In this document: piece after piece, positions 5,302 to 24,926 of the stretch
Layout: the number at the start of each line of letters is the position of its first letter
Numbering within the stretch: the stretch's first letter is position 1
IMG/VR virus record: IMGVR_UViG_3300047561_001367
Location: 32,001-96,000 of that record
Length of the DNA: 64,000 nucleotides
Source of the DNA: a virus
Taxonomy: Duplodnaviria > Caudoviricetes
Strand: one strand, 5' to 3'
The notes under the pieces: model-generated
The model's database searches: none
Seen by the model: only the letters and a program-made list of their open reading frames with translations
Told to the model about the DNA's origin: nothing
Program-made: the position numbers and the translations under genes

Positions 5302-7107
5302 ATGCCGACATACGAAGACGTTTCTATTGAGAGTAAGTCAGAATTTGATACTTCTGATTTACTTTTTTCATTCACTCGACCAATACAACTTTGTGCAATG
5401 GAAGTTAATCGTATAGATAATAATAAAATTATTATAGCGTCTAAGTTGAAAAATATTGCGCTATTAGAAGAACAAAGTGTAAATTTAAAAATGGATACAA
5501 TGAAAGATTTTAAATATTCGATTCGTTTTGATGGAATTATAGTTCAAGCGATGGTTTCATCTGATGAGGACAAGTATTTAGCCGTAGCTTCGGTTGACCA
5601 ACTAAAAGAATACCTTCCAAAGAATGTTGATCTTGACGTTAATCGTGATTTAATGGGCGTTGCTTTTGATGCTTTTGTTGTTAATCGCGGAAATAAAAAC
5701 GGCCACATTATCAGTACGGATGTTGCGTTAGCAATGGTAGAGAATTTTATTAATAAGCCTTTTAACATCGAACATAACCGTAAAGTTGTTGTAGGCGTTT
5801 GTACTGGATATGGATTTAGCGAGTTTGGTACTAGTAAACCATTAACTCTTGAAGAAATCAAAGCAAAGAAAGATCCTTTTAATGTTGTTCTATCTGGTTA
5901 TGTATGGAAAATTGTAAATCCAGAATTTGCGGCTGAACTCGTAGATAGCAGCGACCCATCTTCTGATCAATACCTTTCTGTTAGTGCAAGTTGGGAGCTT
6001 GGATTCAATGAATTCAATATCGCCAAAGGCAGTAAAAATTTAGCAGATGCTTCTATTATAGAAGACGAAGACAAAATCATTGAATTAAAAGATCGCCTAA
6101 AAGTATTCGGTGGGAATGGTGCCACTGAAGATGGTGATATAATTTTATTAAATTTACAAGGCAGTGTTCTCCCGTTGGGCATTGGTTTCACAAATACTCC
6201 AGCCGCTGAAGTAAGTGGCGTTGCTATTTCTTACGATAAACCAGAACAAACAAAAGCCGAAGTTACGAATATGAAATATACATGCGCAAAATGCGGATAC
6301 AACGGGATAAAAGCTGACGCTTGTCCTGAATGTGGATGCGAAGATTATACAGAGATGGAAACTGAAAATGAAAACGAGCTTCCGGCTTCTGAAAATAATA
6401 TTAATAAAAAAAGTGTCCTAGAGGATAATAAAAATGTAAAAAATATTATGCACATTAATAATGTTGATGATATTACGGAAGATTCCATTAAGGAAATAGC
6501 TGCAAGTCATGTTCGTGAGTTTATTTCGAATAAGATTGCTGAGTTAGCAACTGAATGGAAATCGAAAGTCGAAGAAAAAGAAACCGCGCTTAAAGCTGCT
6601 GAAGATCAAATCGCTGCATTGAAAACCGATTTAGATTCTATCAAAGCAGATAGTGATAAAGTAAAAGAAGAATTCGTTGCTATTCAAGAATCTTTGAAAG
6701 CTAAAGAAATCGAAGCTACTTTCCAACATCGTATGGCCATTCTTGATGAAGAGTTCGACTTGACTGATGAAGATCGCACTATCATTGCTGAAGATTTAAA
6801 TGCCATTGAAAATGATGAACAATTTGAAAAATGGTACAAGAAGTTTTCTACATTTGCCGCTGCTAAAAAGAAATCGGCTAAAGTTGTCAAAAAAGAAGCC
6901 ATGAAAGAAGGCGAGCCAGCCCCTAAAGAAATGAAGGAAGAAAAGGCCGCTGAAATCGTAGCCAGTGAAAAAACTGTAGAAGAAGTAATTTCGAGTGTTG
7001 AGGTAAAGGAAGAAGTTCTTCCAAACGCTTCCTCGCCTCAAGAGGCTACATTGGTCGAAAAGATCAATGCGGCTTTCAATAAAAATAGCGTAAAAATTAA
7101 TAAATAA
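5302..7107 (+). CDS. Prohead maturation protease fused to a Zn ribbon and coiled-coil scaffold
   Basis: NKNGH, KPFNIEH and SVSASWE motifs as in phage prohead serine proteases; CAKC..CPEC; acidic coiled-coil C-terminus; upstream of the capsid genes. Confidence 0.8.
   Translation: MPTYEDVSIESKSEFDTSDLLFSFTRPIQLCAMEVNRIDNNKIIIASKLKNIALLEEQSVNLKMDTMKDFKYSIRFDGIIVQAMVSSDEDKYLAVASVDQLKEYLPKNVDLDVNRDLMGVAFDAFVVNRGNKNGHIISTDVALAMVENFINKPFNIEHNRKVVVGVCTGYGFSEFGTSKPLTLEEIKAKKDPFNVVLSGYVWKIVNPEFAAELVDSSDPSSDQYLSVSASWELGFNEFNIAKGSKNLADASIIEDEDKIIELKDRLKVFGGNGATEDGDIILLNLQGSVLPLGIGFTNTPAAEVSGVAISYDKPEQTKAEVTNMKYTCAKCGYNGIKADACPECGCEDYTEMETENENELPASENNINKKSVLEDNKNVKNIMHINNVDDITEDSIKEIAASHVREFISNKIAELATEWKSKVEEKETALKAAEDQIAALKTDLDSIKADSDKVKEEFVAIQESLKAKEIEATFQHRMAILDEEFDLTDEDRTIIAEDLNAIENDEQFEKWYKKFSTFAAAKKKSAKVVKKEAMKEGEPAPKEMKEEKAAEIVASEKTVEEVISSVEVKEEVLPNASSPQEATLVEKINAAFNKNSVKINK
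6448..7107 (+). CDS. Putative nested scaffolding protein from an internal in-frame start
   Basis: In-frame ATG (codon 383) at the start of the coiled-coil region, preceded by the same AAAAGTGTCC..ATGTAA architecture as the tail tube gene. Confidence 0.5.
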   Translation: MHINNVDDITEDSIKEIAASHVREFISNKIAELATEWKSKVEEKETALKAAEDQIAALKTDLDSIKADSDKVKEEFVAIQESLKAKEIEATFQHRMAILDEEFDLTDEDRTIIAEDLNAIENDEQFEKWYKKFSTFAAAKKKSAKVVKKEAMKEGEPAPKEMKEEKAAEIVASEKTVEEVISSVEVKEEVLPNASSPQEATLVEKINAAFNKNSVKINK

Positions 7108-12849: not shown

Positions 12850-13353
12850 AACTCAAACGGGCCTGCGGCGGCCAGCGAGTGGTCGCAAGCAGTAACGTAT
12901 AATCCTGGAAATAGGGTTTGGGCTGAAGGGCGCATTTTTGAAGCTACTAGTCAGAACTCCTCTTATCCGTTTTATATTCATATAAATGATCCCGATTATA
13001 TTGTAAATCAAAGGAATAATTGGACTTATATAGGTCAGTTCAATAATAGGCCTAGTTTTGGACGTTTTAGATATATTTGGAAGCATGACCCATCAACTTC
13101 ATCGTCATTAGATTTAGAGGGTTATGTAGATGAATTACAAAATAATTTTCATACAGATGCTGAGGGTCCTGGGTTTACACTACGGAGCACATTAAAGTAT
13201 ATCACTGGTCAAAATAAATGGTATGTTGCGTGCGTTCCTAATCATCTTTTGAATACATGTGGTCCTGATACTATCCATGATAATAATCAATATATTACTC
13301 ATATAAGAGTTAACTCGGGTTGGCAACTAATAGGTTCTGGTAATAAGTTATAA
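12850..13353 (+). CDS. In-frame C-terminal extension of the tail tube (167 aa, carbohydrate-binding-like), reachable by UGA readthrough
   Basis: Same frame as 11731..12849, open for 167 codons, no in-frame ATG/GTG. Begins NSNGPAAASEWSQAVTYNPGNRVWAEGRIFEA (CBM5/12-like W..Y..G..V...G..[FY].A). Confidence 0.7.
   Translation, partial: NSNGPAAASEWSQAVTYNPGNRVWAEGRIFEATSQNSSYPFYIHINDPDYIVNQRNNWTYIGQFNNRPSFGRFRYIWKHDPSTSSSLDLEGYVDELQNNFHTDAEGPGFTLRSTLKYITGQNKWYVACVPNHLLNTCGPDTIHDNNQYITHIRVNSGWQLIGSGNKL
12863..12892 (+). promoter_or_regulatory. GC-rich RNA hairpin 3' of the tail tube UGA (candidate recoding signal)
   Basis: CTGC-G-GCGGCCA-(GCGAG)-TGGTCGC-AA-GCAG in otherwise AT-rich sequence; no U tract. 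Confidence 0.55.
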
Positions 13354-13650: not shown

Positions 13651-14478
13651 ATGGATAAAAATACAAAAAATTGGTTGTACGAATTTGAAGCTAAAACCGA
13701 ATCTGGTGAAGTTAAAAAGTTTGCAGTTTTAAAAGCCAATCGGCGCATGAGGGAAGATGGCGAGTTATTTTATTCGAGTGAGGTCTCTAGATTTGCAAAA
13801 GCAGGTGTTTTACCAAAAGCGGCTTGGAATACAATCTTATCAGATGGCGGCGGAAGTATCAGTGAGAAAGACCGCGAACTATATGGAAATTTATTGATGG
13901 ATTTTCGTGATAAGTCTTTTGATTTACAGGCTATTTTAATTAAAAACGTTTCGGAAAGAAGTGAGGATGAGCAGCTTCGTAGCACGAAATTAATCGAGGA
14001 ACTTGAGGCTATCAAGCAAGAAATCCAAGGGTTTGAAGCTTCACAAATTTCTATTTTTGAGAATACGGCTGAGTCTAAAGCTAGAAATCGCGCCATCTTG
14101 TGGTGGGTTATGAATCTTGCCTATAAAAAAGAGGGTGAGACTTATGAACTATTATTTGATGGAAATAGTTTTAATGATAAATTAGATCTTTATGATTCCC
14201 TTGAGGAAGATGCTACTAAACATGCGTTCTTACTCGGGGTGTTAAGGAGAATTACTTATTTAATTACCCTTTGGTTCTTAGGTCGTGCTGAAAATACAGA
14301 GGATATGAAATCTTTTGATGACATGTTCTTAAAAGACAATGATTTGGGTTCAGAAGAAACTTCTACAGAAACTAAAACACCAGTTGTTGAGGAAAAAGTT
14401 ACAGTGACCGAGACTGTTGTTGAAAAGATTGAAGCGGTTGCTACCGAGACAGTCGCTCAGGACACTCCAGCCGCATAA
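13651..14478 (+). CDS. Putative tail assembly chaperone
   Basis: Acidic helical protein between tube and TMP. Confidence 0.55.
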   Translation: MDKNTKNWLYEFEAKTESGEVKKFAVLKANRRMREDGELFYSSEVSRFAKAGVLPKAAWNTILSDGGGSISEKDRELYGNLLMDFRDKSFDLQAILIKNVSERSEDEQLRSTKLIEELEAIKQEIQGFEASQISIFENTAESKARNRAILWWVMNLAYKKEGETYELLFDGNSFNDKLDLYDSLEEDATKHAFLLGVLRRITYLITLWFLGRAENTEDMKSFDDMFLKDNDLGSEETSTETKTPVVEEKVTVTETVVEKIEAVATETVAQDTPAA

Positions 14479-14481
14479 CAT

Positions 14482-15519
14482 GTGGAGAATAAAAAGCAGT
14501 TTAATTTTGGTAGAATTTATAATGAAGTAGCGGATGGTTGCTCTGAGAAAATTATAAATAAATATCGGGTTTATTTTAAGCACCCTACGGTCTCTGAAAA
14601 TTTTACAATTTACGCTAGGTATGATAATATTTTAGCAGAGGCCAAATTAAAGGGACTATTAACCCAAGAAGAGAAGATTAATGAGGCTATAGAGGGTGGT
14701 TGGTGGACAAAAGATAAAGAACGTGAAATTTATATTTTACGTAAATCTGTTGCAAATTTAATTAAAACCCGTTCTAAACTGATAATACCCTCTCAAAAAA
14801 ATGCTATTAATACTCAAATTAAACGTAATGAGTCTATACTTTTAACATTAATAAAAGAAAGGCAGGAGTTTCTTAATTATACAGCTGAAGAGTATGTTAA
14901 TAGTCGATTTGTTGATGAAATGATTATTTATTATTCTTATAAAGATAAATCTTTAAAGGAAAAGTTGTTTGAAAATTTAGATGAGTATTTTGATATAGCA
15001 GATGAAATTTCTGAAAAAATTCGAACTGTTTATAACACATACGATACCGAGTTGGGTGATAAAAATGTGCGTATGGTTGCCGCATCCGGATTTTTTCAAA
15101 ACATGATTTATTTAGGGGATACTTGTGTAGATTTTTGGGGGCAACCAGTTAATAAATGTAGTAAATATCAAATAGATTTATTAGTGTATGGAAAGATTTA
15201 TAAAAATGTAATTAAAAATCGTTCAGAAAATGGTGAGCCAGTAAGAGATGAGATATTGAGTGATCCAGAATTATTTCTTAATTGGATGGAAGATGAGAGT
15301 AATAAATCTAAAGCTGGTAATTCAAATAGTAATTCAAAATATAATTTTGATAAGGGTAATAATGCTGTTACAAGTTATGTGGGAGCGAGTGCCGACGATT
15401 TAGAAAAAATGGGTGTTAAAGTCGAAAAAATAAAAGGTAAGAGTCTATTGGATTTAGCTAGAGAGAAAGGTGGTACTTTAGAAAAAAGTGATTATTTGAA
15501 AGTCAGAGAAAATTTATAA
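14482..15519 (+). CDS. Putative second tail assembly chaperone
   Basis: Immediately upstream of TMP; GTG start, in frame with the previous gene. Confidence 0.5.
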   Translation: MENKKQFNFGRIYNEVADGCSEKIINKYRVYFKHPTVSENFTIYARYDNILAEAKLKGLLTQEEKINEAIEGGWWTKDKEREIYILRKSVANLIKTRSKLIIPSQKNAINTQIKRNESILLTLIKERQEFLNYTAEEYVNSRFVDEMIIYYSYKDKSLKEKLFENLDEYFDIADEISEKIRTVYNTYDTELGDKNVRMVAASGFFQNMIYLGDTCVDFWGQPVNKCSKYQIDLLVYGKIYKNVIKNRSENGEPVRDEILSDPELFLNWMEDESNKSKAGNSNSNSKYNFDKGNNAVTSYVGASADDLEKMGVKVEKIKGKSLLDLAREKGGTLEKSDYLKVRENL

Positions 15520-15560: not shown

Positions 15561-18500
15561 ATGGCTAATATTGATATCACCATAGGCGGAAATACACGGC
15601 AACTGGAAAAAGATATCCAGAATACCGTTAATAAATCATATAACATTAATTTAACGACAAAGGGCGATCAACCCCTTGGTCGTATTACTGGAAAAGTAAA
15701 CGAATTTACAAAATCGTTAGACGCTTCTAATGCTCGTGTTATTGCGTTCGGAGCTAGTGCTGGAGTTATTTATGGAATACAAAGGGCTTTTGATTCTTTA
15801 GTATCTTCCACAATTGAAGTTCAAAAATCTTTACAAGATATTAACGTTATTTTAAACGTTTCTACTAGTCAAATAAATAAATTTGGATCTGAACTTTTTA
15901 ACATAGCTAAAAATACTGGGCAAAGTTTTCAAGAAGTTGCCAAAGCTGCTACTGAATTTTCAAGACAGGGGTTGGGTGTTGAGGAAACTTTAAAAAGAAC
16001 AAGTCAAGCCCTAATTTTATCACGTTTAAGCGGACTGGATGCAGCAAAAAGTGTTGAAGCCTTAACGGCTGCCGTAAACTCTTTTGCTTCACAAGCCGTT
16101 ACTGCATCTGAAGTTGTTAATAAATTTGCAAATGTTGACGCTGCATTCGCAGTTAGTTCTGGCGATCTTGCGGAAGCTATTAGCCGCGTTGGTAGTAGTG
16201 CTGCACAATCTGGCGTTAGTTTAAATGAACTTATTGCTATTGTAACTTCTGCGCAGCAAACTACCGCGCGCGGTGGCGCTGTTATTGGTAACTCTTTTAA
16301 AACAATATTTACAAGATTACAACGCGGCAAGGTAGTAGACTTGTTAGGCAGTTTGGGTGTTGGAGATACTGACAGTCAAGGTAAAGTTAAATCTACAATT
16401 CAATTACTACAAGATTTAGCTAAAGTTTACGATACGCTCGGGCGCGGTCAACAGTCAGATGTGGCAGAAAAAGTCGGTGGCGTATTTCAAATTAACATTT
16501 TAAAAGCAGCTCTTGCTGATTTAGGTAAAGAATATTCTGTTTATAATAGCGCATTAAGAACTGCTGCATCGTCTACAGACCAAGCTATTTCAAGAAATGA
16601 GGCGTTGAATAAAACTTACGCAGCGCAATTAAATACCCTTAGTCAAAATGCTAAACAATTATCTGCAAATGTTGGGCAACGAGTTTTAGGTCCGACTTTT
16701 GATAGAGTCGTTGGCGGTGCAAATGATCTTCTTGGTGGCGTTAATGAAAGTGATGGTCAAGGTGTTGGAGCTACTCTTGCCAAAGGAATTCTTGATGGAA
16801 TAGGTAAAACTATTGCTGGCCCAGGATTGGCTTTAATTGGTGGCGTTCTTATTAAATTAATCGGTGACTTTAGTAAATTTGCTGCTGGTAGCGTAAAAGA
16901 ATTATTGGGTTTAAATACCGCTACTAAACAACAGGCTGATTTACAAAAGAGTGTTAATGATATTTTATCTAAGAATCCAGCGTTAATTGAATTGGCGCTT
17001 AAAGGAGAACAGGGCTTAGCAAGCGCGGCAGAAGTTTTATTATCTAATTTAAGAGCGCAAACTGTAGAGTTAGAAAAACAACAGCAAATTTCTGCTAAAC
17101 TTGCACAACAATTTTATGGCGCTGGAGTTCGTGTTACAGGTGGTGTTCCAACTGCTCCGCCAGCGCCAAAAGCCAAAGGTAAAGCGGCTGGATATATTCC
17201 GAATTTTGTTTCAGATGCAATTGCAGAAAAATATACAGCGATTTCTTTGGGTGCCACTTCTACTGTTCGTCCACATATGTCGGAAGGTACAATTGGTGGG
17301 CGGAAGTTCGTAATGAATGACCAAGAAACCGAATATCCAGGAGTGGGTCGTAATGGGGATTCAATGGTCATTCCACATTATGCTGCAAGAGGGTTCGTTC
17401 CTAATTTTGCACCAGCTAATATTAAAGCAATCAGAGAGGGGAATATATTTGAAAAACAGATAAATAAAATTTTATTTGGAATCGAATCAGATGCTGGTAG
17501 TAGGGCATTAGACTTTTTACCATCAAATTCTATTGGGTCATTACCAAGTGAAATTAAAAAAAGTTTAAATATTAGTCCAGCCTCTAGATATGGAGATGCA
17601 AAAAGAACGGAAAGTAAATCTAGCCAGGCGAATTTCGTCTCTAAAGTTCTTAGACAATTTCCGAATATACTTAATAATAGAGAACCTGATAAAAATAATT
17701 TTATTGACCTTAGCAATGCCCCAGAACTGAGTGGGTTAGCCATGTTATTTATTAATGAGGGTACTGATAAAAAGAGTTTTGCTTATTTGGGAACTGGAGG
17801 CCCTAATAAAGTAGCGCAAGGGAAAGGCTCTAATTATGGACAAAAAACTGGAAAAATTTTTCAACAAAATAAGGCTATAGCAAATAATAAAAGAAATGTT
17901 ACGATAAAAGTTCCATATTTATCAGATAAAATAGATGTATCTAAATTGCCAAGCTTGGAAAGTGGTAAAAGGTCGTATGCATCTAAATTTAAGAAATCAT
18001 TTGCATCTGGCTTCATTCCGAATTTTGCAACCACTGGTACTGGATCTGTAATTGATCTAGGAGATATAGCGGCGGGTAGCCCAATATTAAAAGGAAAAAT
18101 TGCGTCATTAATTTATCCAGGTGAGTCTAGCGGTATTCAAAAGGTACCTGTAAAATCTGTATATAGAGGTCAAGCTTTTAAAGGTCTTCTGCCGACTGCT
18201 GGCATTAATAAAGGCGAATTAAAACAGGGTATTAATATACCTAATGTTGAGGATGACGTAGAGCAGATGCTTTTAAATCAGGCTAATAATTTTGGCCAAG
18301 TACTTTCAAGTAGCGGTATACCAATGAGTGCGCTTGTAAAGGGCGAGTTGCCGAACACTGGCGCGGTAAAAGGCGCGGCAGGAGTTGCATTTGAAGGCGC
18401 GGTAAAAAGTGTTGTAAATAAAAGCTTACAGTCTACATCTCAAAATGCTAATATAGACTTTGCAAGTCCAAGTACTAAATTAAGAAGTATTTTTAATAAA

Positions 18501-21500
18501 GCTCCAGGCGTATATGACGCTAAATATACAACGGGATTAGCAGATGATGTTTTAGCTAAACTTTTAAGATTCGCGCAACCAGCCGTTGCCGGAGTCACAA
18601 AACAAGTGACGAGCGGTCCTGGATTTAAAGAGTATCAAGCTAAACGTCAAGCCGCTTTAGATGAGATTAAAAAAAGCGGGGTAACTGGATCCGTAAATAT
18701 TAAAAAAGCTTTAAGAGGTAAAGGTTTTGCGCGGGGTTTTATTCCAAATTTTTCTGCCTTACAAGACGCAGTAGCTCGTGAACAAGGGGCTGGAATTCCT
18801 AAGAGTCAAATTTATATTGCACAACATTCGCGTCTAGCAGCGGCAGGCTATAATCCATTAGGTCTTGGAGTATTTAACAAAATTGATGAACCTACAAGCG
18901 CAGCAAGAGACGGTGCAGTAAAAAAACGCGGTTATGCTGGCGGATTTATTCCAAATTTCGCAGACGAGGGTGCGCAAACTCCTAGTTTTACACAGGGTGT
19001 TTTGGCCGTTGGCACCCAATTAACTACTTTAGCTTTTATATTAGGCGCAAGAAGAGCTGATATAAATAAATCTTTAATAGATATAGCTAGAGCAAATAGG
19101 GACCAAGCGAAATCTAAAATTAAAGCGTTAAAAGAGGAATTGAATGCAAAAGTTCAAGTTGATTCTGGACTAAGAACTGCTGGCATTAACCCAGGCGTGT
19201 TAATGACCGAAAAATCTGCAAATTCACCTGAACGTCAAAGAGGTTTACAAGCACAAATTGATGCTTTAAAAAGTGGAAAGGGTAGATTTGGGCCAAGCAC
19301 GGGTCAACGCTTTATGGCAAGTGTTGGCGGTGGTCAAGGACTGGCAAATATAGGTATGTTTGCAGCTCCTATAATAGCTGAAACTATAAAAAATCAAATA
19401 CCACAAGATACAAAAGGTGGTCGTGTTGGAGCGTCAGTTGTTAGTGGTTTAGGGCAAACGGCTAGTATGGCTGGAACTGGATTTATGTTAGGTGGACCTA
19501 TGGGGGCTGTTGTTGGTGGACTTGTAGGTGCGGGTATAGCGTTCACGGATGTTATCAATCAGGCTAGTAGCGCATTACCCGAGTTGACTGCAGCAGCAGA
19601 AAAAGCTGGTCAAGCATTGAGTAGATCTAACGATCAATCCCAACAAATACGCGCTGGAATTGGTCAAATAAAAGAACTTCGTAACGCTGGAAATTTCAAA
19701 GACGCCGCTAAACAACAGTTGAATTTAGAACAGTTGATACGTGAGATGGAACTCGGCCCAGGAGTTAATCGTACAGATGCGTTAGCGGCAATTAAACAGT
19801 TAGATTTCGCTGGTTTAGAACAGGCTCTACAAAAAAATACTGATGCATTAACAAGACAGGGCACGAGTACTGGTAATATTGAAAGTATTACAAAACTTAT
19901 TGAAGGTGGGAAGGGTAAAGAAGCTGGCACAAAACTTTTTCAAATTGGGCAACGTGAAGCAGCTGGGTCTGGCAAAGAATTAAGCGCTAAAGATTATGAT
20001 AAATCTATAAGAGACATAATTAATGTTTTTAGAAAAGTTAAATCTAATGTAGAAGTAAGTCAATCAGAGTTTGAAAAACTCCCTGGATTTAGTAAAGAAT
20101 TGATAAATCAAATTGCTGATGGATCTATAGATGCAGGCCAACTTACTGACATTTTACAGGGTTTATTGGGTGCGGCTGGGGACGCAAGAAAAGAGGCTGC
20201 CGAAATTGCAAAAAGATTAGGAAAGGGAAATCCGCCACTTCAAAAATTAATTGAAAGTTTTACAACTGCCCAATCTAATATAGCTAAATTTGCACAACAA
20301 GCCGCTATTACAACCGCTCTACAAAGTGAATTAAATAATGCGATTTCTACAGCTAAAGATGCAATCCTCCAAAATGATTTAGAAAATAAATCTGAAATCT
20401 TTGGAAAAGATCTTTTAAATAATCCAAAATTAGCGCAACAGTTCGGATTAGATGCTGGTTTAAATAAAATTAAAGGGCCGGAAAATAATGATAGTGTTAT
20501 TAAAGCTCAAACTGCCCTTAGTGATTATGTAAAAAACACTATAACAAATAATTTATCAGCACAAGCCGGTGGTATATCATTATCTGGAAAAGATAGTAAT
20601 ACCCCTATTAACGATACTCTTGCAGCTGTTACGAGTTTACAAGATGTAATACAAAAATTAATTAATACGACTAGCGGTAATAATATTCAATTAAATAATG
20701 TTGGTTTAAATCCTGATGAACGTTCTACACAAATAATTGATGAAATTAAAAAATTAACTGGAAACGAAGTTTCGACGGAAGATCAGGCAAAAATTCGTGA
20801 GTTAAATCAGCAACTTGTACGAGAAACTGTAATAGGGAATACTATTCAAAGACAACAATTAAGAGTTCTAGCGCAAAACAGTATACAAAATTTAGTAAAA
20901 CAATTTGTTACAGCTACTCAAAATGCATTTGGTGGTAAAGAGGGGTTTGTAGGTGGCAATTTAGAATTATTTGATAATTTAGATCAAGCTGTGGCTGATT
21001 TCAATAATCTTCAAAATGTATCTGATAACCCATTAAAAATAGAGCAGGGTCGTGCAAGTACTACAATATTAGACGAATTAAGTAAGTTAATTGGGCGTGA
21101 CGTAACGGGTTCGCTAAGTCCAGATAACATGTTAGTTAAATCTGCAACGCAAGGTCAAGCCCTTGACTTGCAAGCAAATATTGAAGAAATGCTATCCACT
21201 ATCACAAAACTTCCTGGTGGCGGTGAAGATTTAAAAGGTACAATAGTTAGCTTATTGCGTGAGCAAAGTGGGGCTGGGACGAATAATATACAAGATATCG
21301 CACAGCAAATGGCTAAAACGCGGGTTGGTGGTCAACAAGCAAATAATGGTTTATTAGAGGACCTTAGAAGAAATGCAATAGCTAATTTAGAAGATCTAAA
21401 TAAAAGGGAAGGTAGCAAGGGTAAATATGATGAAATCATAAAGATGGCTAAAGAAAATCCATCTGGCATATTTAATGATACCCAAAGTTTAATTGCTAGT

Positions 21501-24500
21501 GAAACTTCAAGACAAACGGGTATTCTAGAACAGATATTAAATGCAATTAATAATAAAGGAGGGCTTACTGGTGAGACTCAAAAAACAACATCTGATACTA
21601 CAAATACACAGTCAGAATCTACTGATAGAAAGATTAAAGTAAGGCCGGTTCCAGAAAATTCATCCTATACCACTATGTCTTCCGGCTTTGTTCCTTCATT
21701 CGCCAAAGAAGCTCGTGATATTAAAAAGGGTATTGGCGGCGCGCTTGCTAGTGACAGAGCTAAATTCATTCCGAATTTAAACGGCAAACCAGCCGTGATT
21801 AATAGCGGCGAAAAATTAATTCCTAATTTTGCTAATACTGGACAAACAGCCGTATTAACCAGAAACATGCAGAAGATGATGAATATGGCCGGTGGCTTTA
21901 TTCCGAATTTTGCAACAGGTTCTGCCAAAGATGAAAAACAATTACAAGAAGCGTTACTTAGAGCGGCTGGAGTAAACTCCCTTGTTCAAAAAAATCTTGG
22001 GCTAGGATTTGAGAACCCATTAGGGGCAGCTGGAGAAATACCTAGCGTGGAAAGATTTAATGCAAATGATCCTAATAATAAAAACTATAGGGCTTTTACT
22101 GAAATTTACGGACGTTCCGCTAAAGTTTCATTCAAAGCTGGCGCTGTAGGGGTAGGAACAATATCTAATGAGGCTACAGCATTAACACAAAATTTACTAC
22201 CGACCACTAATAATCCAAGCAAATTAAGTGAAAATCTTAGTCAATCGAGTGAAATGAATAGGGCGGTTGGAATTCGTGGAACTAATAAGGACAGTTTAGC
22301 AAAAGCTCAAAAAGAATATCGGAAAAGATTAGAAAAATATGCAGATAAAATTGTTGCATTAAATGAGAAAGCTGGTAAACCATTTGCGAAAACAGAAAAT
22401 CTTAAACTTTCTGGAATGGAAGGTTATGATAAAAGAGCGTTCGGTGTAAATGATGCAAGTAGGGGTATTATAACGTCAGAATTTGTTAAATCGAATTCGA
22501 GAGATTATAGTATTGAAAGATTAAGTACTCTAAATTCAATGCTATTTGAGGGGATACAGAGGGGAGGGATTACTGCTGAAGATCTTATATCCCAAGGAAT
22601 CGCTAAAAATAAAGACGAGTCAGATTACATGATAAGAGAAATTGAAAAAATTTCAAATCTTACTTCTACACCTACGCCGAAGCCTACGGCTACGCCAAAG
22701 CCTAAGCCCGCACCTGCGCCTACTCCCACGGCTACGCCAAAGCCGGTTCCTACCGCAACACCTAAACCCGCGTCACCATCTCCATTACCACCGCCAACAA
22801 ACACACCTACATCTACCCCATTAATACCTAAAAATTTACCAATTGGTGCGACGCCATTTTCTAGAGCCTCCATTCTAACAAATTTTAGGGACAACCCAAT
22901 AGAAAATCCAGGTAATATAAACCGTATGGTAACAGATAAAAATGGCAGACTTGTGGGTTATTCACGTCAATTAGTTGATGGAAAAGCTATGGCTAAAGCT
23001 GGTAAAAGCGTATCTGAAATAGAAAAAGCAACAAGAATGGCTAGAGACGCGGCTCGTGCGGCAAATAGTCCATATCAATTAATTGGTGGACAAAATAATC
23101 GCCCAGGGGTACAAATTAATAAAACAACTGGTATGTCTAATTACGTTCCAAAGGCGGTTTTAAATGATAAAAAAACTACTGGAGATTTATCACAAAGAAT
23201 TACTGATTTAAAGAATCAACGCAGTCAAGCTAGCCAACCATCACAAATATCAAGACGTTTAGATGGAGTTATTACTCCTGGAGTTAGTTTCGAGAGAGTA
23301 GGGCGGGATGTTTATAGAGATACGGCAACAGGTGCATTAACTAGTAATCGTCAAATGTCTGCGGGTAAAGTAACGACTTCTGCTATGCGCGAAGCCCAAG
23401 CTCGCCAAGACGAGATGAATAAAAGGGCAAATTATTCTACAGGATTTATTCCAAATTTTGTTAATGCTGCTGACTATAATAAGCAAAGAATAACTCAGAT
23501 GACTCCAGATAAAGATGGGTTAGTTCCCAACTCTCCATTTTCAAAAATAGCTAGAAAATATTACGATAGAAATTTACTTCAAAAAAATATTGGTTTTAGT
23601 GAATTTGAGACACTTTATGGTAGGGCTAACGGGATTGGAGAGGGTAATGGATTGGGTATCGGTCCTGATTCATATTTAACAACAGCTAGTGTTGCAAAGG
23701 GCACCCCAAAATCAAGAAAACTTCCGATGGCTATTCAAATGGCGCTTTTTAATAGAGCGGCCTCGCCAATTTCAGAATATACTAGCCTGTTTGATAACAC
23801 TACAATTAAAACTGGTGGTGGCAGAGGTATTCCAGCCGCTAATTATACAAATGTCGAAAAAGAGGGTAGAATTTCATCTTATAGAAATGGGCGTTTGATG
23901 TCTGTTCAACGGCCATCTAATGAAAGCTATGTGACAGAGGGAACTACGGATGATACTATAGCAAAAAATATCGGCAAAGGAATAACTCAATATTTTGGAT
24001 CAAAAGACGCACAATTGGGTGGCTTGGGAAGTTACAAGGGTAGAAGAGAAGTCCAAGGAAATACAACTTCATTATACGATAAAAGTGATAAACTTATTGG
24101 TACTGCATATAGTCTTGTAGGTGGGGAGGCAATGAGACAAGCTGGTAAGAGTATATCCCAAATAGAAGCCGCGACTAGAGCGGTCAGACAAACGAATGAG
24201 CAAAAACCTGGCGGCACTGGGGAAATATATCATGTAGGACCAAAAGCTGGTGAACGTACAGAAGCACAAAAAAATAAAGATGCCGGAATTAACCCAGTTA
24301 GTGCTCCTAGTTTAGATTCCATGCCAGATAAGGAAAAAATTAAGCCAGCATATGCACACGGTTTTATTCCAAATTTTGCTAAAAATTTTGATGGCAAATC
24401 ATTCTTACGCGCGGCAAAAGAGGCGGCTAACGCAGAAATTCAGCAAACAGGTGGTACCGCAAGACCAGCACTTGGATTTGATAAAGGCAATCCAAATAAA

Positions 24501-24926
24501 CCATTTATTTATAATAAAAATAATCAAACAGAAAGTTCTGCCCCAAATGATCACGGTGGTTATGATAAAGGAGTTATGGAATCAAAACGCAATCGTGGGT
24601 CGAGTTCTTCAAAAACTGGTATGATTGCAAATATGGGTTATGGTGGAAAAAATGCTTACTCTACCTCTAGTCCTACATTTAATATTAATTTCAGTCCACA
24701 AACAACTAATAACCATTCACAAGGATTTGTTCCAAATTTTGCGAATAATGATAAAGTAAACTATGAAGAATTGATTGGTAAGATGAAAAAAGATATGGAA
24801 AAACGTTGGTCGGAGGCTCAGAATACTATAGCACCAATGCAAAAAACACTAGATAATGCCCAAAGAAATAAAATTATTCCAGGGGCAGTTCCAAAAATTT
24901 ACGGACCTAAATTAGCAATAACATAA
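15561..24926 (+). CDS. Tape measure protein (3121 aa), modular, with repeated GFIPNF motifs and cargo-like domains
   Basis: N-terminal TP901-type TMP core (AKNTGQSFQEVAKAATEFSRQG...), Gly-rich TM segments, coiled coils, ten G[FY][IV]P[NS]F motifs. Confidence 0.9.
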   Translation: MANIDITIGGNTRQLEKDIQNTVNKSYNINLTTKGDQPLGRITGKVNEFTKSLDASNARVIAFGASAGVIYGIQRAFDSLVSSTIEVQKSLQDINVILNVSTSQINKFGSELFNIAKNTGQSFQEVAKAATEFSRQGLGVEETLKRTSQALILSRLSGLDAAKSVEALTAAVNSFASQAVTASEVVNKFANVDAAFAVSSGDLAEAISRVGSSAAQSGVSLNELIAIVTSAQQTTARGGAVIGNSFKTIFTRLQRGKVVDLLGSLGVGDTDSQGKVKSTIQLLQDLAKVYDTLGRGQQSDVAEKVGGVFQINILKAALADLGKEYSVYNSALRTAASSTDQAISRNEALNKTYAAQLNTLSQNAKQLSANVGQRVLGPTFDRVVGGANDLLGGVNESDGQGVGATLAKGILDGIGKTIAGPGLALIGGVLIKLIGDFSKFAAGSVKELLGLNTATKQQADLQKSVNDILSKNPALIELALKGEQGLASAAEVLLSNLRAQTVELEKQQQISAKLAQQFYGAGVRVTGGVPTAPPAPKAKGKAAGYIPNFVSDAIAEKYTAISLGATSTVRPHMSEGTIGGRKFVMNDQETEYPGVGRNGDSMVIPHYAARGFVPNFAPANIKAIREGNIFEKQINKILFGIESDAGSRALDFLPSNSIGSLPSEIKKSLNISPASRYGDAKRTESKSSQANFVSKVLRQFPNILNNREPDKNNFIDLSNAPELSGLAMLFINEGTDKKSFAYLGTGGPNKVAQGKGSNYGQKTGKIFQQNKAIANNKRNVTIKVPYLSDKIDVSKLPSLESGKRSYASKFKKSFASGFIPNFATTGTGSVIDLGDIAAGSPILKGKIASLIYPGESSGIQKVPVKSVYRGQAFKGLLPTAGINKGELKQGINIPNVEDDVEQMLLNQANNFGQVLSSSGIPMSALVKGELPNTGAVKGAAGVAFEGAVKSVVNKSLQSTSQNANIDFASPSTKLRSIFNKAPGVYDAKYTTGLADDVLAKLLRFAQPAVAGVTKQVTSGPGFKEYQAKRQAALDEIKKSGVTGSVNIKKALRGKGFARGFIPNFSALQDAVAREQGAGIPKSQIYIAQHSRLAAAGYNPLGLGVFNKIDEPTSAARDGAVKKRGYAGGFIPNFADEGAQTPSFTQGVLAVGTQLTTLAFILGARRADINKSLIDIARANRDQAKSKIKALKEELNAKVQVDSGLRTAGINPGVLMTEKSANSPERQRGLQAQIDALKSGKGRFGPSTGQRFMASVGGGQGLANIGMFAAPIIAETIKNQIPQDTKGGRVGASVVSGLGQTASMAGTGFMLGGPMGAVVGGLVGAGIAFTDVINQASSALPELTAAAEKAGQALSRSNDQSQQIRAGIGQIKELRNAGNFKDAAKQQLNLEQLIREMELGPGVNRTDALAAIKQLDFAGLEQALQKNTDALTRQGTSTGNIESITKLIEGGKGKEAGTKLFQIGQREAAGSGKELSAKDYDKSIRDIINVFRKVKSNVEVSQSEFEKLPGFSKELINQIADGSIDAGQLTDILQGLLGAAGDARKEAAEIAKRLGKGNPPLQKLIESFTTAQSNIAKFAQQAAITTALQSELNNAISTAKDAILQNDLENKSEIFGKDLLNNPKLAQQFGLDAGLNKIKGPENNDSVIKAQTALSDYVKNTITNNLSAQAGGISLSGKDSNTPINDTLAAVTSLQDVIQKLINTTSGNNIQLNNVGLNPDERSTQIIDEIKKLTGNEVSTEDQAKIRELNQQLVRETVIGNTIQRQQLRVLAQNSIQNLVKQFVTATQNAFGGKEGFVGGNLELFDNLDQAVADFNNLQNVSDNPLKIEQGRASTTILDELSKLIGRDVTGSLSPDNMLVKSATQGQALDLQANIEEMLSTITKLPGGGEDLKGTIVSLLREQSGAGTNNIQDIAQQMAKTRVGGQQANNGLLEDLRRNAIANLEDLNKREGSKGKYDEIIKMAKENPSGIFNDTQSLIASETSRQTGILEQILNAINNKGGLTGETQKTTSDTTNTQSESTDRKIKVRPVPENSSYTTMSSGFVPSFAKEARDIKKGIGGALASDRAKFIPNLNGKPAVINSGEKLIPNFANTGQTAVLTRNMQKMMNMAGGFIPNFATGSAKDEKQLQEALLRAAGVNSLVQKNLGLGFENPLGAAGEIPSVERFNANDPNNKNYRAFTEIYGRSAKVSFKAGAVGVGTISNEATALTQNLLPTTNNPSKLSENLSQSSEMNRAVGIRGTNKDSLAKAQKEYRKRLEKYADKIVALNEKAGKPFAKTENLKLSGMEGYDKRAFGVNDASRGIITSEFVKSNSRDYSIERLSTLNSMLFEGIQRGGITAEDLISQGIAKNKDESDYMIREIEKISNLTSTPTPKPTATPKPKPAPAPTPTATPKPVPTATPKPASPSPLPPPTNTPTSTPLIPKNLPIGATPFSRASILTNFRDNPIENPGNINRMVTDKNGRLVGYSRQLVDGKAMAKAGKSVSEIEKATRMARDAARAANSPYQLIGGQNNRPGVQINKTTGMSNYVPKAVLNDKKTTGDLSQRITDLKNQRSQASQPSQISRRLDGVITPGVSFERVGRDVYRDTATGALTSNRQMSAGKVTTSAMREAQARQDEMNKRANYSTGFIPNFVNAADYNKQRITQMTPDKDGLVPNSPFSKIARKYYDRNLLQKNIGFSEFETLYGRANGIGEGNGLGIGPDSYLTTASVAKGTPKSRKLPMAIQMALFNRAASPISEYTSLFDNTTIKTGGGRGIPAANYTNVEKEGRISSYRNGRLMSVQRPSNESYVTEGTTDDTIAKNIGKGITQYFGSKDAQLGGLGSYKGRREVQGNTTSLYDKSDKLIGTAYSLVGGEAMRQAGKSISQIEAATRAVRQTNEQKPGGTGEIYHVGPKAGERTEAQKNKDAGINPVSAPSLDSMPDKEKIKPAYAHGFIPNFAKNFDGKSFLRAAKEAANAEIQQTGGTARPALGFDKGNPNKPFIYNKNNQTESSAPNDHGGYDKGVMESKRNRGSSSSKTGMIANMGYGGKNAYSTSSPTFNINFSPQTTNNHSQGFVPNFANNDKVNYEELIGKMKKDMEKRWSEAQNTIAPMQKTLDNAQRNKIIPGAVPKIYGPKLAIT
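22664..22830 (+). repeat. Pro/Thr/Lys-rich low-complexity linker (TPKPTATPKP...)
   Basis: Direct translation; repeated ACGGCTACGCCAAAGCC. Confidence 0.85.

What the first reader, a model, noticed from the sequence alone, without database searches (positions are those of the whole stretch)
15561..24926. Tape measure protein built like a cargo-carrying polyprotein, punctuated by ten GFIPNF motifs
Seen: G-[FY]-[IV]-P-[NS]-F (extended consensus about [FYM]-[AS]-x-G-F-I-P-N-F-A) occurs at nt 17190, 17391, 18009, 18735, 18942, 21684, 21894, 23442, 24360 and 24723 (codons 544, 611, 817, 1059, 1128, 2042, 2112, 2628, 2934, 3055). Degenerate copies KFIPNL and KLIPNFA lie near 21762-21833. Codon usage differs between copies, so conservation is at the protein level. 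The motifs fall at compositional boundaries: helical TMP core / 67 aa / 206 aa globular / 242 aa globular / 69 aa / 914 aa TM + coiled coil / 70 aa / 516 / 306 / 121 / ~67 aa. Known: TMPs are ejected into the cell and several are proteolytically processed. Inference: the motif is a cleavage or handling signal that lets one gene package and inject several separate effector proteins, with modules swapped between motifs.
Basis: partly seen in the sequence, partly recalled or inferred. Interest (0 to 1): 0.9.

Follow-up and report, generated by a model that had tools for sequence, protein, structure and literature searches.

The report
Tape measure protein with motif-fenced swappable modules
The tail "ruler" protein of this uncultured 125-kb phage carries two strings of separately folding modules, each fenced by the same ten-residue peptide, and related phages swap modules exactly at that peptide; whether the peptide is cut, and whether the modules are injected, is untested.

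Summary
ORF 15561-24926 encodes a 3121-aa TP901-type tape measure protein (TMP). It has ten G[FY][IV]P[NS]F motifs at exactly the stated codons. None is expected by chance, and there are none elsewhere in the genome.

The extended motif is [KAFY]-A-x-G-[FY]-[IV]-P-N-F-A. Selection acts on the peptide: codons follow background usage. In the AlphaFold model all five modelled copies lie in low-confidence linkers between folded parts.

The family is large and uncultured, with 1169 cluster representatives carrying 1-14 motifs each (strict or looser pattern). Segments between motifs behave as cassettes. In the closest relative only segment 2 is replaced (21% identity, against 89-97% for its neighbours), and DNA identity breaks inside motif 2 and returns at motif 3.

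Arrays sit at two insertion points and are bracketed by homologous mini-domains of about 65 aa.

Not supported here:
- Any recognisable enzyme in this protein's modules. The E..D..DxK signature of segments 2 and 3 is real, but no nuclease fold was found.
- Any protease, including ORF 5302-7107.
- Cleavage or injection.

My reading is a standard junction peptide for an exchangeable cargo array, most likely a post-assembly cleavage site (about 0.4). A docking signal or a structural joint are the rivals.

This scan has found the same system before on other DNA.

The parts
15561..24926 (+). Tape measure protein gene, 3121 codons plus stop
   Evidence: PF10145 PhageMin_Tail at aa 116-307, E 1.8e-27. 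TMP PHROGs cover aa 11-478. It is the only PF10145 match in the record. It lies between the tube-side ORFs and large distal tail ORFs.
15561..17189 (+). Conserved N-terminal core (aa 1-543); ends in a K/G/P-rich stretch before motif 1
   Evidence: Median 73% identity to 192 relatives, the best conserved part of the tail module. Present in 118 of 121 proteins.
17190..17207 (+). Motif 1, GYIPNF
   Evidence: mean pLDDT 42 for model residues 11-20.
17208..17390 (+). Mini-domain type A (segment 1)
   Evidence: Folded helix plus four strands, pLDDT 70-82. Homologous across relatives with invariant G, N586 and E589.
17391..17408 (+). Motif 2, GFVPNF
   Evidence: lies in pLDDT<50 stretch 80-99 of the model. 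DNA identity to L080 collapses here.
17409..18008 (+). Cassette segment 2 (about 200 aa, pI 10.0), variable
   Evidence: Found in only 13 of 120 relatives. 21% identity to the corresponding segment of the closest relative. Cassettes of the same cluster in relatives match the core of the segment-3 HMM at 1e-5 to 1e-7.
18009..18026 (+). Motif 3, GFIPNF
   Evidence: lies in pLDDT<50 stretch 258-298. DNA identity to L080 returns here.
18027..18734 (+). Cassette segment 3 (about 236 aa), the commonest cassette family
   Evidence: AF2 mean pLDDT 86.7. G941, F944, F978 and K988 invariant; K1000 99%, D966 95%, E945 92%, D986 75%. No fold match.
18735..18752 (+). Motif 4, GFIPNF
   Evidence: lies in pLDDT<50 stretch 526-537.
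18753..18941 (+). Mini-domain type B (segment 4)
   Evidence: R, E, G, L, N, G, V and N invariant, and P (of N-P) and D-E in 90% or more, across 44 sequences. Profile-profile match to type A: probability 98.2%, E 4e-14, partly carried by the flanking motifs.
18942..18959 (+). Motif 5, GFIPNF
   Evidence: lies in pLDDT<50 stretch 597-611.
18960..21683 (+). Segment 5 (about 908 aa): long body with a Gly-rich hydrophobic stretch at aa 1308-1333, pI 6.0
   Evidence: cluster 3, in 89 proteins. Only about 27% identity among relatives.
21684..21701 (+). Motif 6, GFVPSF
21702..21893 (+). Mini-domain (segment 6) holding degenerate copies KFIPNL (21762-21779) and KLIPNF (21813-21830)
   Evidence: Groups with segment 1. 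Relatives have equivalent internal copies.
21894..21911 (+). Motif 7, GFIPNF
21912..23441 (+). Cassette segment 7 (about 510 aa, pI 10.0), with a Pro/Thr-rich linker near aa 2335-2400
   Evidence: Only weak PHROG hits of unknown function on the linker. 53% identity to the closest relative.
23442..23459 (+). Motif 8, GFIPNF
23460..24359 (+). Cassette segment 8 (about 300 aa, pI 9.5)
   Evidence: Shares a 39-aa stretch at 51% identity with segment 7.
24360..24377 (+). Motif 9, GFIPNF
24378..24722 (+). Segment 9 (about 115 aa), cluster 5
24723..24740 (+). Motif 10, GFVPNF
24741..24926 (+). C-terminal tail piece (61 aa) and stop
   Evidence: Cluster 22. In other relatives the piece after the last motif is homologous to the C-terminus of TMPs without a C-terminal array. 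This was not shown for this tail type.

Best explanation
The gene encodes a TP901-type tape measure protein whose ruler is interrupted at two insertion points. One lies after the conserved 543-aa N-terminal core. The other lies in front of the C-terminal tail piece. Each insertion point holds an array of separately folding, mostly basic modules. Every module boundary carries the peptide [KAFY]-A-x-G-[FY]-[IV]-P-N-F-A in a disordered linker, and each array is bracketed by homologous mini-domains of about 65 aa. SHOWN: the peptide is selected at protein level, is found only in the TMP, and is the exact joint at which relatives replace, gain and lose modules. INFERRED: because every joint is the same whatever the module, one factor treats all modules alike. 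I favour an endopeptidase, of phage or host origin and not identified, that cuts at the joints after the tail is built or on ejection. T5 pb2 is the precedent: it is cut between its ruler and its enzyme domain, and both pieces stay in the tail. The TMP trimer would then be expelled ahead of the DNA and release up to about ten separate proteins.
For: - Motif real and non-random and exclusive to the TMP: 317 copies inside TMP ORFs and 0 outside in 77 related loci with flanks of up to 10 kb.
- Short motif: information content is confined to about -5..+6 in 581 sites.
- Peptide-level selection: codons at the motif follow background usage.
- All five modelled motifs lie in low-confidence linkers, four inside pLDDT<50 stretches and motif 1 at mean pLDDT 42, between folded parts. 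The motif at the start of segment 3 is also unstructured.
- Cassette behaviour: 102 segment families and about 80 architectures in 121 proteins. 54% of internal homology end-points fall within 10 aa of a motif, against 4.5% at random.
- Closest relative: per-segment identity 97/94/21/89/94/84/90/53/70/95/87%. DNA identity breaks inside motif 2 and returns at motif 3.
- In relatives, C-terminal arrays are insertions in front of a retained tail piece. Any cutting must therefore follow assembly.
- Precedent: T5 TMP is cleaved after R1127 during tail morphogenesis, between a hydrophobic stretch and its muralytic domain; both pieces stay in the tail and are expelled (PMC10038345).
- Small residues at -2 (A 83%, S 13%) and an invariant G before the aromatic residue resemble small-x-small peptidase sites. 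This resemblance is from my own knowledge and is untested.
Against: - No termini data exist.
- No protease family was found in the 125-kb record, although the record is only about 71% complete.
- ORF 5302-7107 is not identifiable as a protease.
- The strongly conserved residues lie on what would be the primed side of an A-x-G|F cut. That fits a binding motif as well as a cleavage site.
- No module of this protein matches a known enzyme. Only 1 of 89 cassette representatives from this protein and its relatives matches Pfam (a GNAT).
- Folded 25-kDa modules in three copies do not obviously fit a tail-tube lumen (inference).
Confidence: 0.4

Rival explanations
1. Docking or handling signal without cleavage. 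The peptide is a short linear motif bound by one partner, such as a tail assembly chaperone, the tube lumen, the mini-domains or a host protein. That partner keeps every module, whatever its fold, in an assembly- or ejection-competent state. The TMP stays in one piece.
For: - A hydrophobic/aromatic core (F-I-P-N-F) inside disordered basic linkers is typical of docking motifs.
- Conservation covers six consecutive residues rather than a P1/P1' pair.
- The retained C-terminal tail piece behind the arrays suggests that the chain must stay connected, at least during assembly.
- The mini-domains next to the motifs are the second best conserved part of the protein.
Against: - Motifs are absent from the long helical parts (aa 1-543 and 1134-2041), which a chaperone coat would also have to cover.
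- In the monomer model none of the five motifs packs onto a mini-domain or onto segment 3.
- No partner has been identified.
Confidence: 0.3
2. Passive structural joint. The peptide is a standard hinge or turn that lets three TMP chains stagger bulky modules inside the tube. The mini-domains re-register the chains at both ends of an array. Nothing recognises the peptide.
For: - Arrays are always bracketed by homologous mini-domains.
- The motifs lie in linkers.
- TMPs are trimers in T5 and 80-alpha (PMC10038345).
Against: A hinge does not need near-invariant G, P, N and F across more than 1000 diverged copies. Linkers normally drift, as the sequence around the motif does.
Confidence: 0.2
3. 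Nucleic-acid-level signal. The repeat is a recombination hot-spot or a -1 frameshift site (the heptamer A-AAT-TTT arises when Pro is CCA), and the peptide itself has no role.
For: Five of the ten copies in the window read CCA-AAT-TTT. Recombination joints coincide with the motif.
Against: In 253 distinct copies the codons follow background usage: AAT 81% against 80%, TTT 83% against 79%, CCA 43% against 53%. The heptamer is present in only 28%. Third positions vary freely while the peptide is fixed.
Confidence: 0.02

Closest known systems
TP901-1-family tape measure proteins (Pfam PF10145 PhageMin_Tail)
   Same: The N-terminal domain matches above the curated cut-off. The gene lies between tube-side ORFs and distal tail ORFs. 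The nearest cultured relatives are TMPs of Lactococcus phage 949 and of Bacillus phages.
   Different: Only 23-27% identity, restricted to the N-terminal core. No cultured phage record matches the motif/cassette region. Motif-fenced arrays have not been described for this family: 0 papers hold the motif.
Phage T5 tape measure protein pb2 (PMC10038345)
   Same: It is a TMP that carries an enzyme domain. It is cut during tail morphogenesis between the ruler's hydrophobic stretch and that domain. Both pieces stay in the tail and are expelled into the envelope.
   Different: It has one cut site (after R1127) and one known muralytic domain. It has no repeated junction peptide, no cassette exchange and no sequence similarity.
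Polyvalent proteins of phages and conjugative elements (Iyer et al. 2017, PMC5512222)
   Same: They are very large proteins of mobile elements that string together unrelated domains thought to travel with the DNA. Release by embedded peptidases has been proposed.
   Different: That paper never mentions tape measure proteins (0 occurrences). Its proteins are defined by recognisable enzyme domains and often a zincin peptidase. Here no module matches a known family, no peptidase was found, and the fixed junction peptide is an extra feature.
Polymorphic toxins (CdiA with the VENN motif, Rhs with PxxxxDPxGL); from my own knowledge, not tested here
   Same: A short conserved peptide marks the exact joint at which variable domains are exchanged between relatives.
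   Different: Those have one variable C-terminal toxin with an adjacent immunity gene. Here up to a dozen internal cassettes sit in a virion structural protein, and no immunity genes are apparent.
Mycobacteriophage TMPs with embedded Rpf-like or peptidase motifs (Piuri and Hatfull 2006); from my own knowledge
   Same: They are TMPs that carry small functional inserts acting on the host envelope.
   Different: Those inserts are single short motifs inside the helical ruler. They are not arrays of folded modules with a standard joint.

Membership tests
TP901-1-family tape measure protein (PF10145) | PhageMin_Tail domain above Pfam's gathering score | tested here: met
   97 bits against a cut-off of 33.2, aa 116-307. 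It is the only such match in the record.
TP901-1-family tape measure protein (PF10145) | Gene placed between the tail tube/chaperone genes and the distal tail genes | tested here: inconclusive
   The gene order fits and is conserved in 60-71 of 77 related loci. The neighbouring ORFs match no named family.
TP901-1-family tape measure protein (PF10145) | Sets tail length and occupies the tube lumen | not testable with these tools
   Needs virions.
Polyvalent proteins (Iyer et al. 2017) | Two or more recognisable, unrelated catalytic or DNA-binding domains in one giant protein | tested here: not met
   Pfam finds only PF10145 in this protein. One of 89 cassette representatives from this protein and its relatives is a GNAT. 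Four giant relatives show only PF10145 above cut-off.
Polyvalent proteins (Iyer et al. 2017) | Embedded peptidase (zincin-like in about 36%) for self-processing | tested here: inconclusive
   No peptidase family in the protein or in the record. Orphan modules could hide one.
Viral polyprotein | Defined cleavage sites used by a cognate protease | not testable with these tools
   A repeated candidate site exists. No protease was found and there are no termini data.
PD-(D/E)xK nuclease (segments 2 and 3) | Ordered E ... D ... (D/E)xK residues | tested here: met
   E945 92%, D966 95%, D986 75%, K988 100% and K1000 99% in 103 sequences. Segment-2-type cassettes in relatives match the same core.
PD-(D/E)xK nuclease (segments 2 and 3) | Restriction-endonuclease-like alpha/beta fold | tested here: inconclusive
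   A confident model (pLDDT 86.7) has no match. Foldseek against PDB and BFVD: best E 0.03 or worse. VIA-align: Z below 5. Atlas: TM below 0.35. PDB profile search: nothing.
Polymorphic toxin system | Conserved demarcating peptide at the joint of exchangeable domains | tested here: met
Polymorphic toxin system | Cognate immunity gene next to each toxin domain | not tested
   The cassettes are internal to one ORF. No small downstream ORFs were examined for this.

The most novel reading that the evidence does not exclude
One phage tail gene is an injected polyprotein. A dedicated peptidase, or the conserved mini-domains themselves, cuts at every G-[FY]-[IV]-P-N-F joint. The tail then delivers up to a dozen separate host-directed proteins, mostly of unknown fold, ahead of the DNA. 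The standard joint lets phages shuffle this arsenal by recombination. That would make it a virion-borne counterpart of polymorphic toxin systems, spread over more than a thousand uncultured phage lineages.
Probability: 0.3. Interest if true: 0.9.

Novelty: new variant of a known kind. Interest (0 to 1): 0.72.

Why it matters
Tape measure proteins are usually treated as passive rulers with, at most, one lytic domain. This family has at least 1169 representatives at 50% identity, up to 7702 aa long. In it, a standard ten-residue joint turns the ruler into a plug-in rack for dozens of module families, nearly all without known fold or function.

If the modules enter the cell, they are a large untapped pool of first-minute host take-over or anti-defence proteins. 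The joint would be a ready-made tag for finding them in metagenomes. It also makes an old question directly testable: how and why TMPs such as lambda gpH and T5 pb2 are cut. Here the candidate site is explicit and repeated.

Tried and rejected
- Complex prediction of ORF 13651-14478 plus ORF 14482-15519 (in the chaperone position) with the motif1-mini-motif2 piece gave no verdict (score 0.00). It is not evidence either way.
- Fold searches with the 611-aa multi-domain model gave nothing usable.
- Fold searches with the segment-3 model found no nuclease or any other fold.
- Profile searches of the PDB with the whole TMP alignment, segment 3 and both mini-domains found nothing.
- Pfam on the mini-domains found nothing.
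- Alignment A3 (a fragment against full-length proteins) was misaligned and discarded. It was replaced by locus-derived fragments (A4).
- Protease hunt: the S77, S78, S14 and S49 profiles are absent from the record. The nearest named Atlas cluster for ORF 5302-7107 is Peptidase_S77 at 0.89, below the level to trust.
- The frameshift-site idea was rejected on codon usage.
- A short hit that looked like a stand-alone mini-domain protein (P0166) is the cut C-terminus of a TMP at a contig end.
- Host: only one match among 185,579 species genomes, a Crocinitomicaceae MAG contig from a lake. That is too little to name a host.
- Considered from memory and left untested: prepilin-peptidase-like G|F cutting; Asn-mediated self-cleavage at P-N-F; an FlhB-like N-P autocleavage at the N-P-x-G of mini-domain B.
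Full report
**What is there**

The window is bases 32001-96000 of a single 125,470-bp virus record with 33% G+C, estimated about 71% complete. ORF 15561-24926 (+) encodes 3121 residues.
- Residues 116-307 match PF10145 PhageMin_Tail at 97 bits, and TMP PHROGs cover residues 11-478.
- It is the only such match in the record.
- It sits after a run of small head-tail ORFs, a 372-aa tube-position ORF and two ORFs in the chaperone position. Large distal tail ORFs follow.
- The neighbours match no named family, but 60-71 of 77 related loci keep them.

**The motif**

- G[FY][IV]P[NS]F occurs ten times at exactly the reported codons. Two degenerate copies lie in segment 6. Shuffled sequences give none.
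- It occurs nowhere else in the record.
- In 77 related loci with flanks of up to 10 kb it occurs 317 times inside TMP ORFs and never outside.
- A logo from 581 distinct sites gives [KAFY]-A-x-G-[FY]-[IV]-P-N-F-A. There is no information beyond about -5 and +6.
- The 22 residues upstream are K/R/G/P-enriched, with net charge +1.9 against +0.5 downstream.
- Codons at the motif follow the gene's background usage. The potential slippery heptamer A-AAT-TTT is present in only 28% of 253 distinct copies. Selection is therefore on the peptide, not on the RNA or DNA.

**Structure**

An AlphaFold2 model of residues 530-1140 (32-row alignment, mean pLDDT 64) puts all five motifs in low-confidence linkers: four lie inside pLDDT<50 stretches, and motif 1 has mean pLDDT 42. 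Between them it folds:
- mini-domain 1 (pLDDT 70-82),
- segment 3 (80-92),
- mini-domain 4 (55-73),
- segment 2, weakly.

Segment 3 folded alone reaches pLDDT 86.7, and its leading motif is unstructured.

**The family**

- A word-indexed search found 275 relatives of 1716-5462 aa. The 120 that were listed all carry 2-10 motifs.
- An exhaustive profile search with the motif-mini-motif unit found 1169 representatives at E<=1e-3 and 746 at E<=1e-10. The 150 listed are 785-7702 aa long; the 119 of them not already in hand carry 2-14 motifs.
- IMG/VR holds at least 374 relatives.
- No cultured phage record matches the cassette region. The N-terminal core is only 23-27% identical to TMPs of Lactococcus phage 949 and of Bacillus phages.
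- Only one of the species-representative genomes has a match, a Crocinitomicaceae MAG contig from a lake.
- The full-text library holds no paper with the motif.

**Cassette behaviour**

- Cutting 121 proteins at the motifs gives 731 segments in 102 families, 61 of them singletons.
- The commonest architecture (27 proteins) is core | mini A | 250-aa domain | mini B | 1200-aa body. Other proteins insert one to several further cassettes between the two mini-domains. A subset has a second array after the body. This protein has both arrays.
- 54% of internal homology end-points between family members lie within 10 residues of a motif, against 4.5% for random positions. Part of this reflects the motif being a conserved island, so I also checked a direct case.
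- The closest relative (P0002, locus L080) is 97, 94, 21, 89, 94, 84, 90, 53, 70, 95 and 87% identical over segments 0-10.
- At DNA level, identity runs at about 0.9 up to motif 2, falls to about 0.35 within the 30 nt that hold it, stays low across segment 2, and returns to 0.93 at motif 3. That is a clean replacement of one cassette between two joints.

In relatives whose C-terminal array ends in the common tail type, the last piece of about 120 aa is homologous to the C-terminal 90 aa of TMPs without such an array (E 1e-11 to 1e-26). The arrays are therefore insertions in front of a retained tail piece, not simple extensions. This was not shown for this window's own tail type.

**Conservation pattern**

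| Part | Median identity to relatives |
|---|---|
| N-terminal core | 73% |
| Mini-domains | about 55% |
| Segment 3 | 44% |
| Long body (segment 5) | 27% |
| Tube-position ORF | 41% |
| Two chaperone-position ORFs | 30-33% |

- Mini-domains at the first position are all homologous, with invariant G, N and E.
- Those before the body share R, E, G, L, N, G, V and N invariant, with P (of N-P) and D-E in 90% or more.
- The two types match profile-to-profile at probability 98.2%, E 4e-14. The shared flanking motifs inflate this score.

**What the modules are**

- All motif-bounded segments except the first mini-domain (pI 6.1) and the long body (pI 6.0) are basic, pI 9.5-10.4.
- Segment 3 has G941, F944, F978 and K988 invariant, with K1000 99%, D966 95%, E945 92% and D986 75%. 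Segment-2-type cassettes in relatives match the same core.
- The confident model matches no nuclease or any other fold in PDB, BFVD or the ESM Atlas. Profile searches of the PDB are also empty. I do not file it as a nuclease.
- Pfam recognises one GNAT among 89 cassette representatives from this protein and its relatives. It recognises nothing beyond PF10145 above cut-off in four giant relatives.
- For this window, 'effector' is inference from position and charge only.

**Mechanism**

Shown: a peptide-level, TMP-exclusive, disordered junction motif at which modules are exchanged.

Inferred: one factor recognises every joint.

I favour endoproteolysis after assembly or on ejection, at about 0.4. 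My reasons:
- T5 pb2 is cut after R1127, between its hydrophobic stretch and its enzyme domain, with both pieces kept in the tail (PMC10038345).
- The retained C-terminal piece rules out cutting before assembly but not after.
- A-x-G before an aromatic residue looks like a small-x-small site. This last point is from my own knowledge.

Against it: no protease was found (ORF 5302-7107 unassigned), and there are no termini data.

The rivals are a docking or handling motif without cleavage (0.3), a passive joint that lets three chains stagger bulky modules between trimer nodes (0.2), and an RNA/DNA-level signal (0.02, rejected).

**Relation to known systems**

- Membership in the TP901-type TMP family is met on the domain test.
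- The nearest functional concept is the polyvalent proteins of Iyer et al. (PMC5512222). That paper does not mention tape measure proteins, and its defining feature, recognisable enzyme domains, is not met here.
- The joint-plus-exchange logic resembles polymorphic toxins (my own knowledge).
- I rate this a new variant of a known kind.

**Earlier work in this scan**

The scan has reported the same motif-fenced TMP arrays on other genomes. Those notes gave me the polyvalent-protein lead, which I checked. My conclusions rest on the calls cited here.

Noticed in passing
window 15561-17189: The N-terminal 543 aa of the TMP is far better conserved across the family (median 73% identity, many near-invariant columns) than the tube-position ORF (41%) or the chaperone-position ORFs (30-33%). 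That is unusual for a ruler protein and suggests a function beyond spacing.
   Followed up: partly
window 12850-13353: The 167-codon in-frame extension after the tube ORF's TGA, flagged by other notes as readthrough, has no tblastn match in 77 related loci. In the closest relative (L080) a separate 94-aa ORF follows the tube gene.
   Followed up: partly
window 18753-18941 and relatives (alignment A9): Mini-domain B has N invariant and P in 90% or more of an N-P-x-G turn, followed by V-x-N and a near-invariant D-E. From memory this loosely recalls the N|P autocleavage loop of FlhB/EscU-type proteins. No structural or sequence test supports this yet.
   Followed up: no
window 21912-24359: Segments 7 and 8 share a 39-aa stretch at 51% identity (aa 2457-2495 and 2838-2876). 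Segment 7 also holds a Pro/Thr-rich linker of about 60 aa that gives the only PHROG hits outside the core, both of unknown function.
   Followed up: no
The nearest named Atlas cluster is Peptidase_S77 at 0.89 only. No S77, S78, S14 or S49 profile hits anywhere in the record.
   Followed up: partly
window 13651-15519: Two ORFs in the tail-assembly-chaperone position (275 and 345 aa) lie in the same frame, separated by TAA plus one codon. They are much larger than usual G/GT chaperones and show no obvious frameshift arrangement.
   Followed up: no
P0101, a relative: This relative's TMP carries a GNAT acetyltransferase domain (PF00583), per the database's precomputed Pfam annotation. A GNAT (PF00583) is also the only Pfam match among the 89 cassette representatives scanned.
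   Followed up: partly
L078 (MAG contig JBIPMW010000340.1): This is the only match among species-representative genomes: a 32-kb contig binned to a Crocinitomicaceae MAG from a lake. It may be a phage contig binned with its host, which makes it a weak host lead.
   Followed up: no
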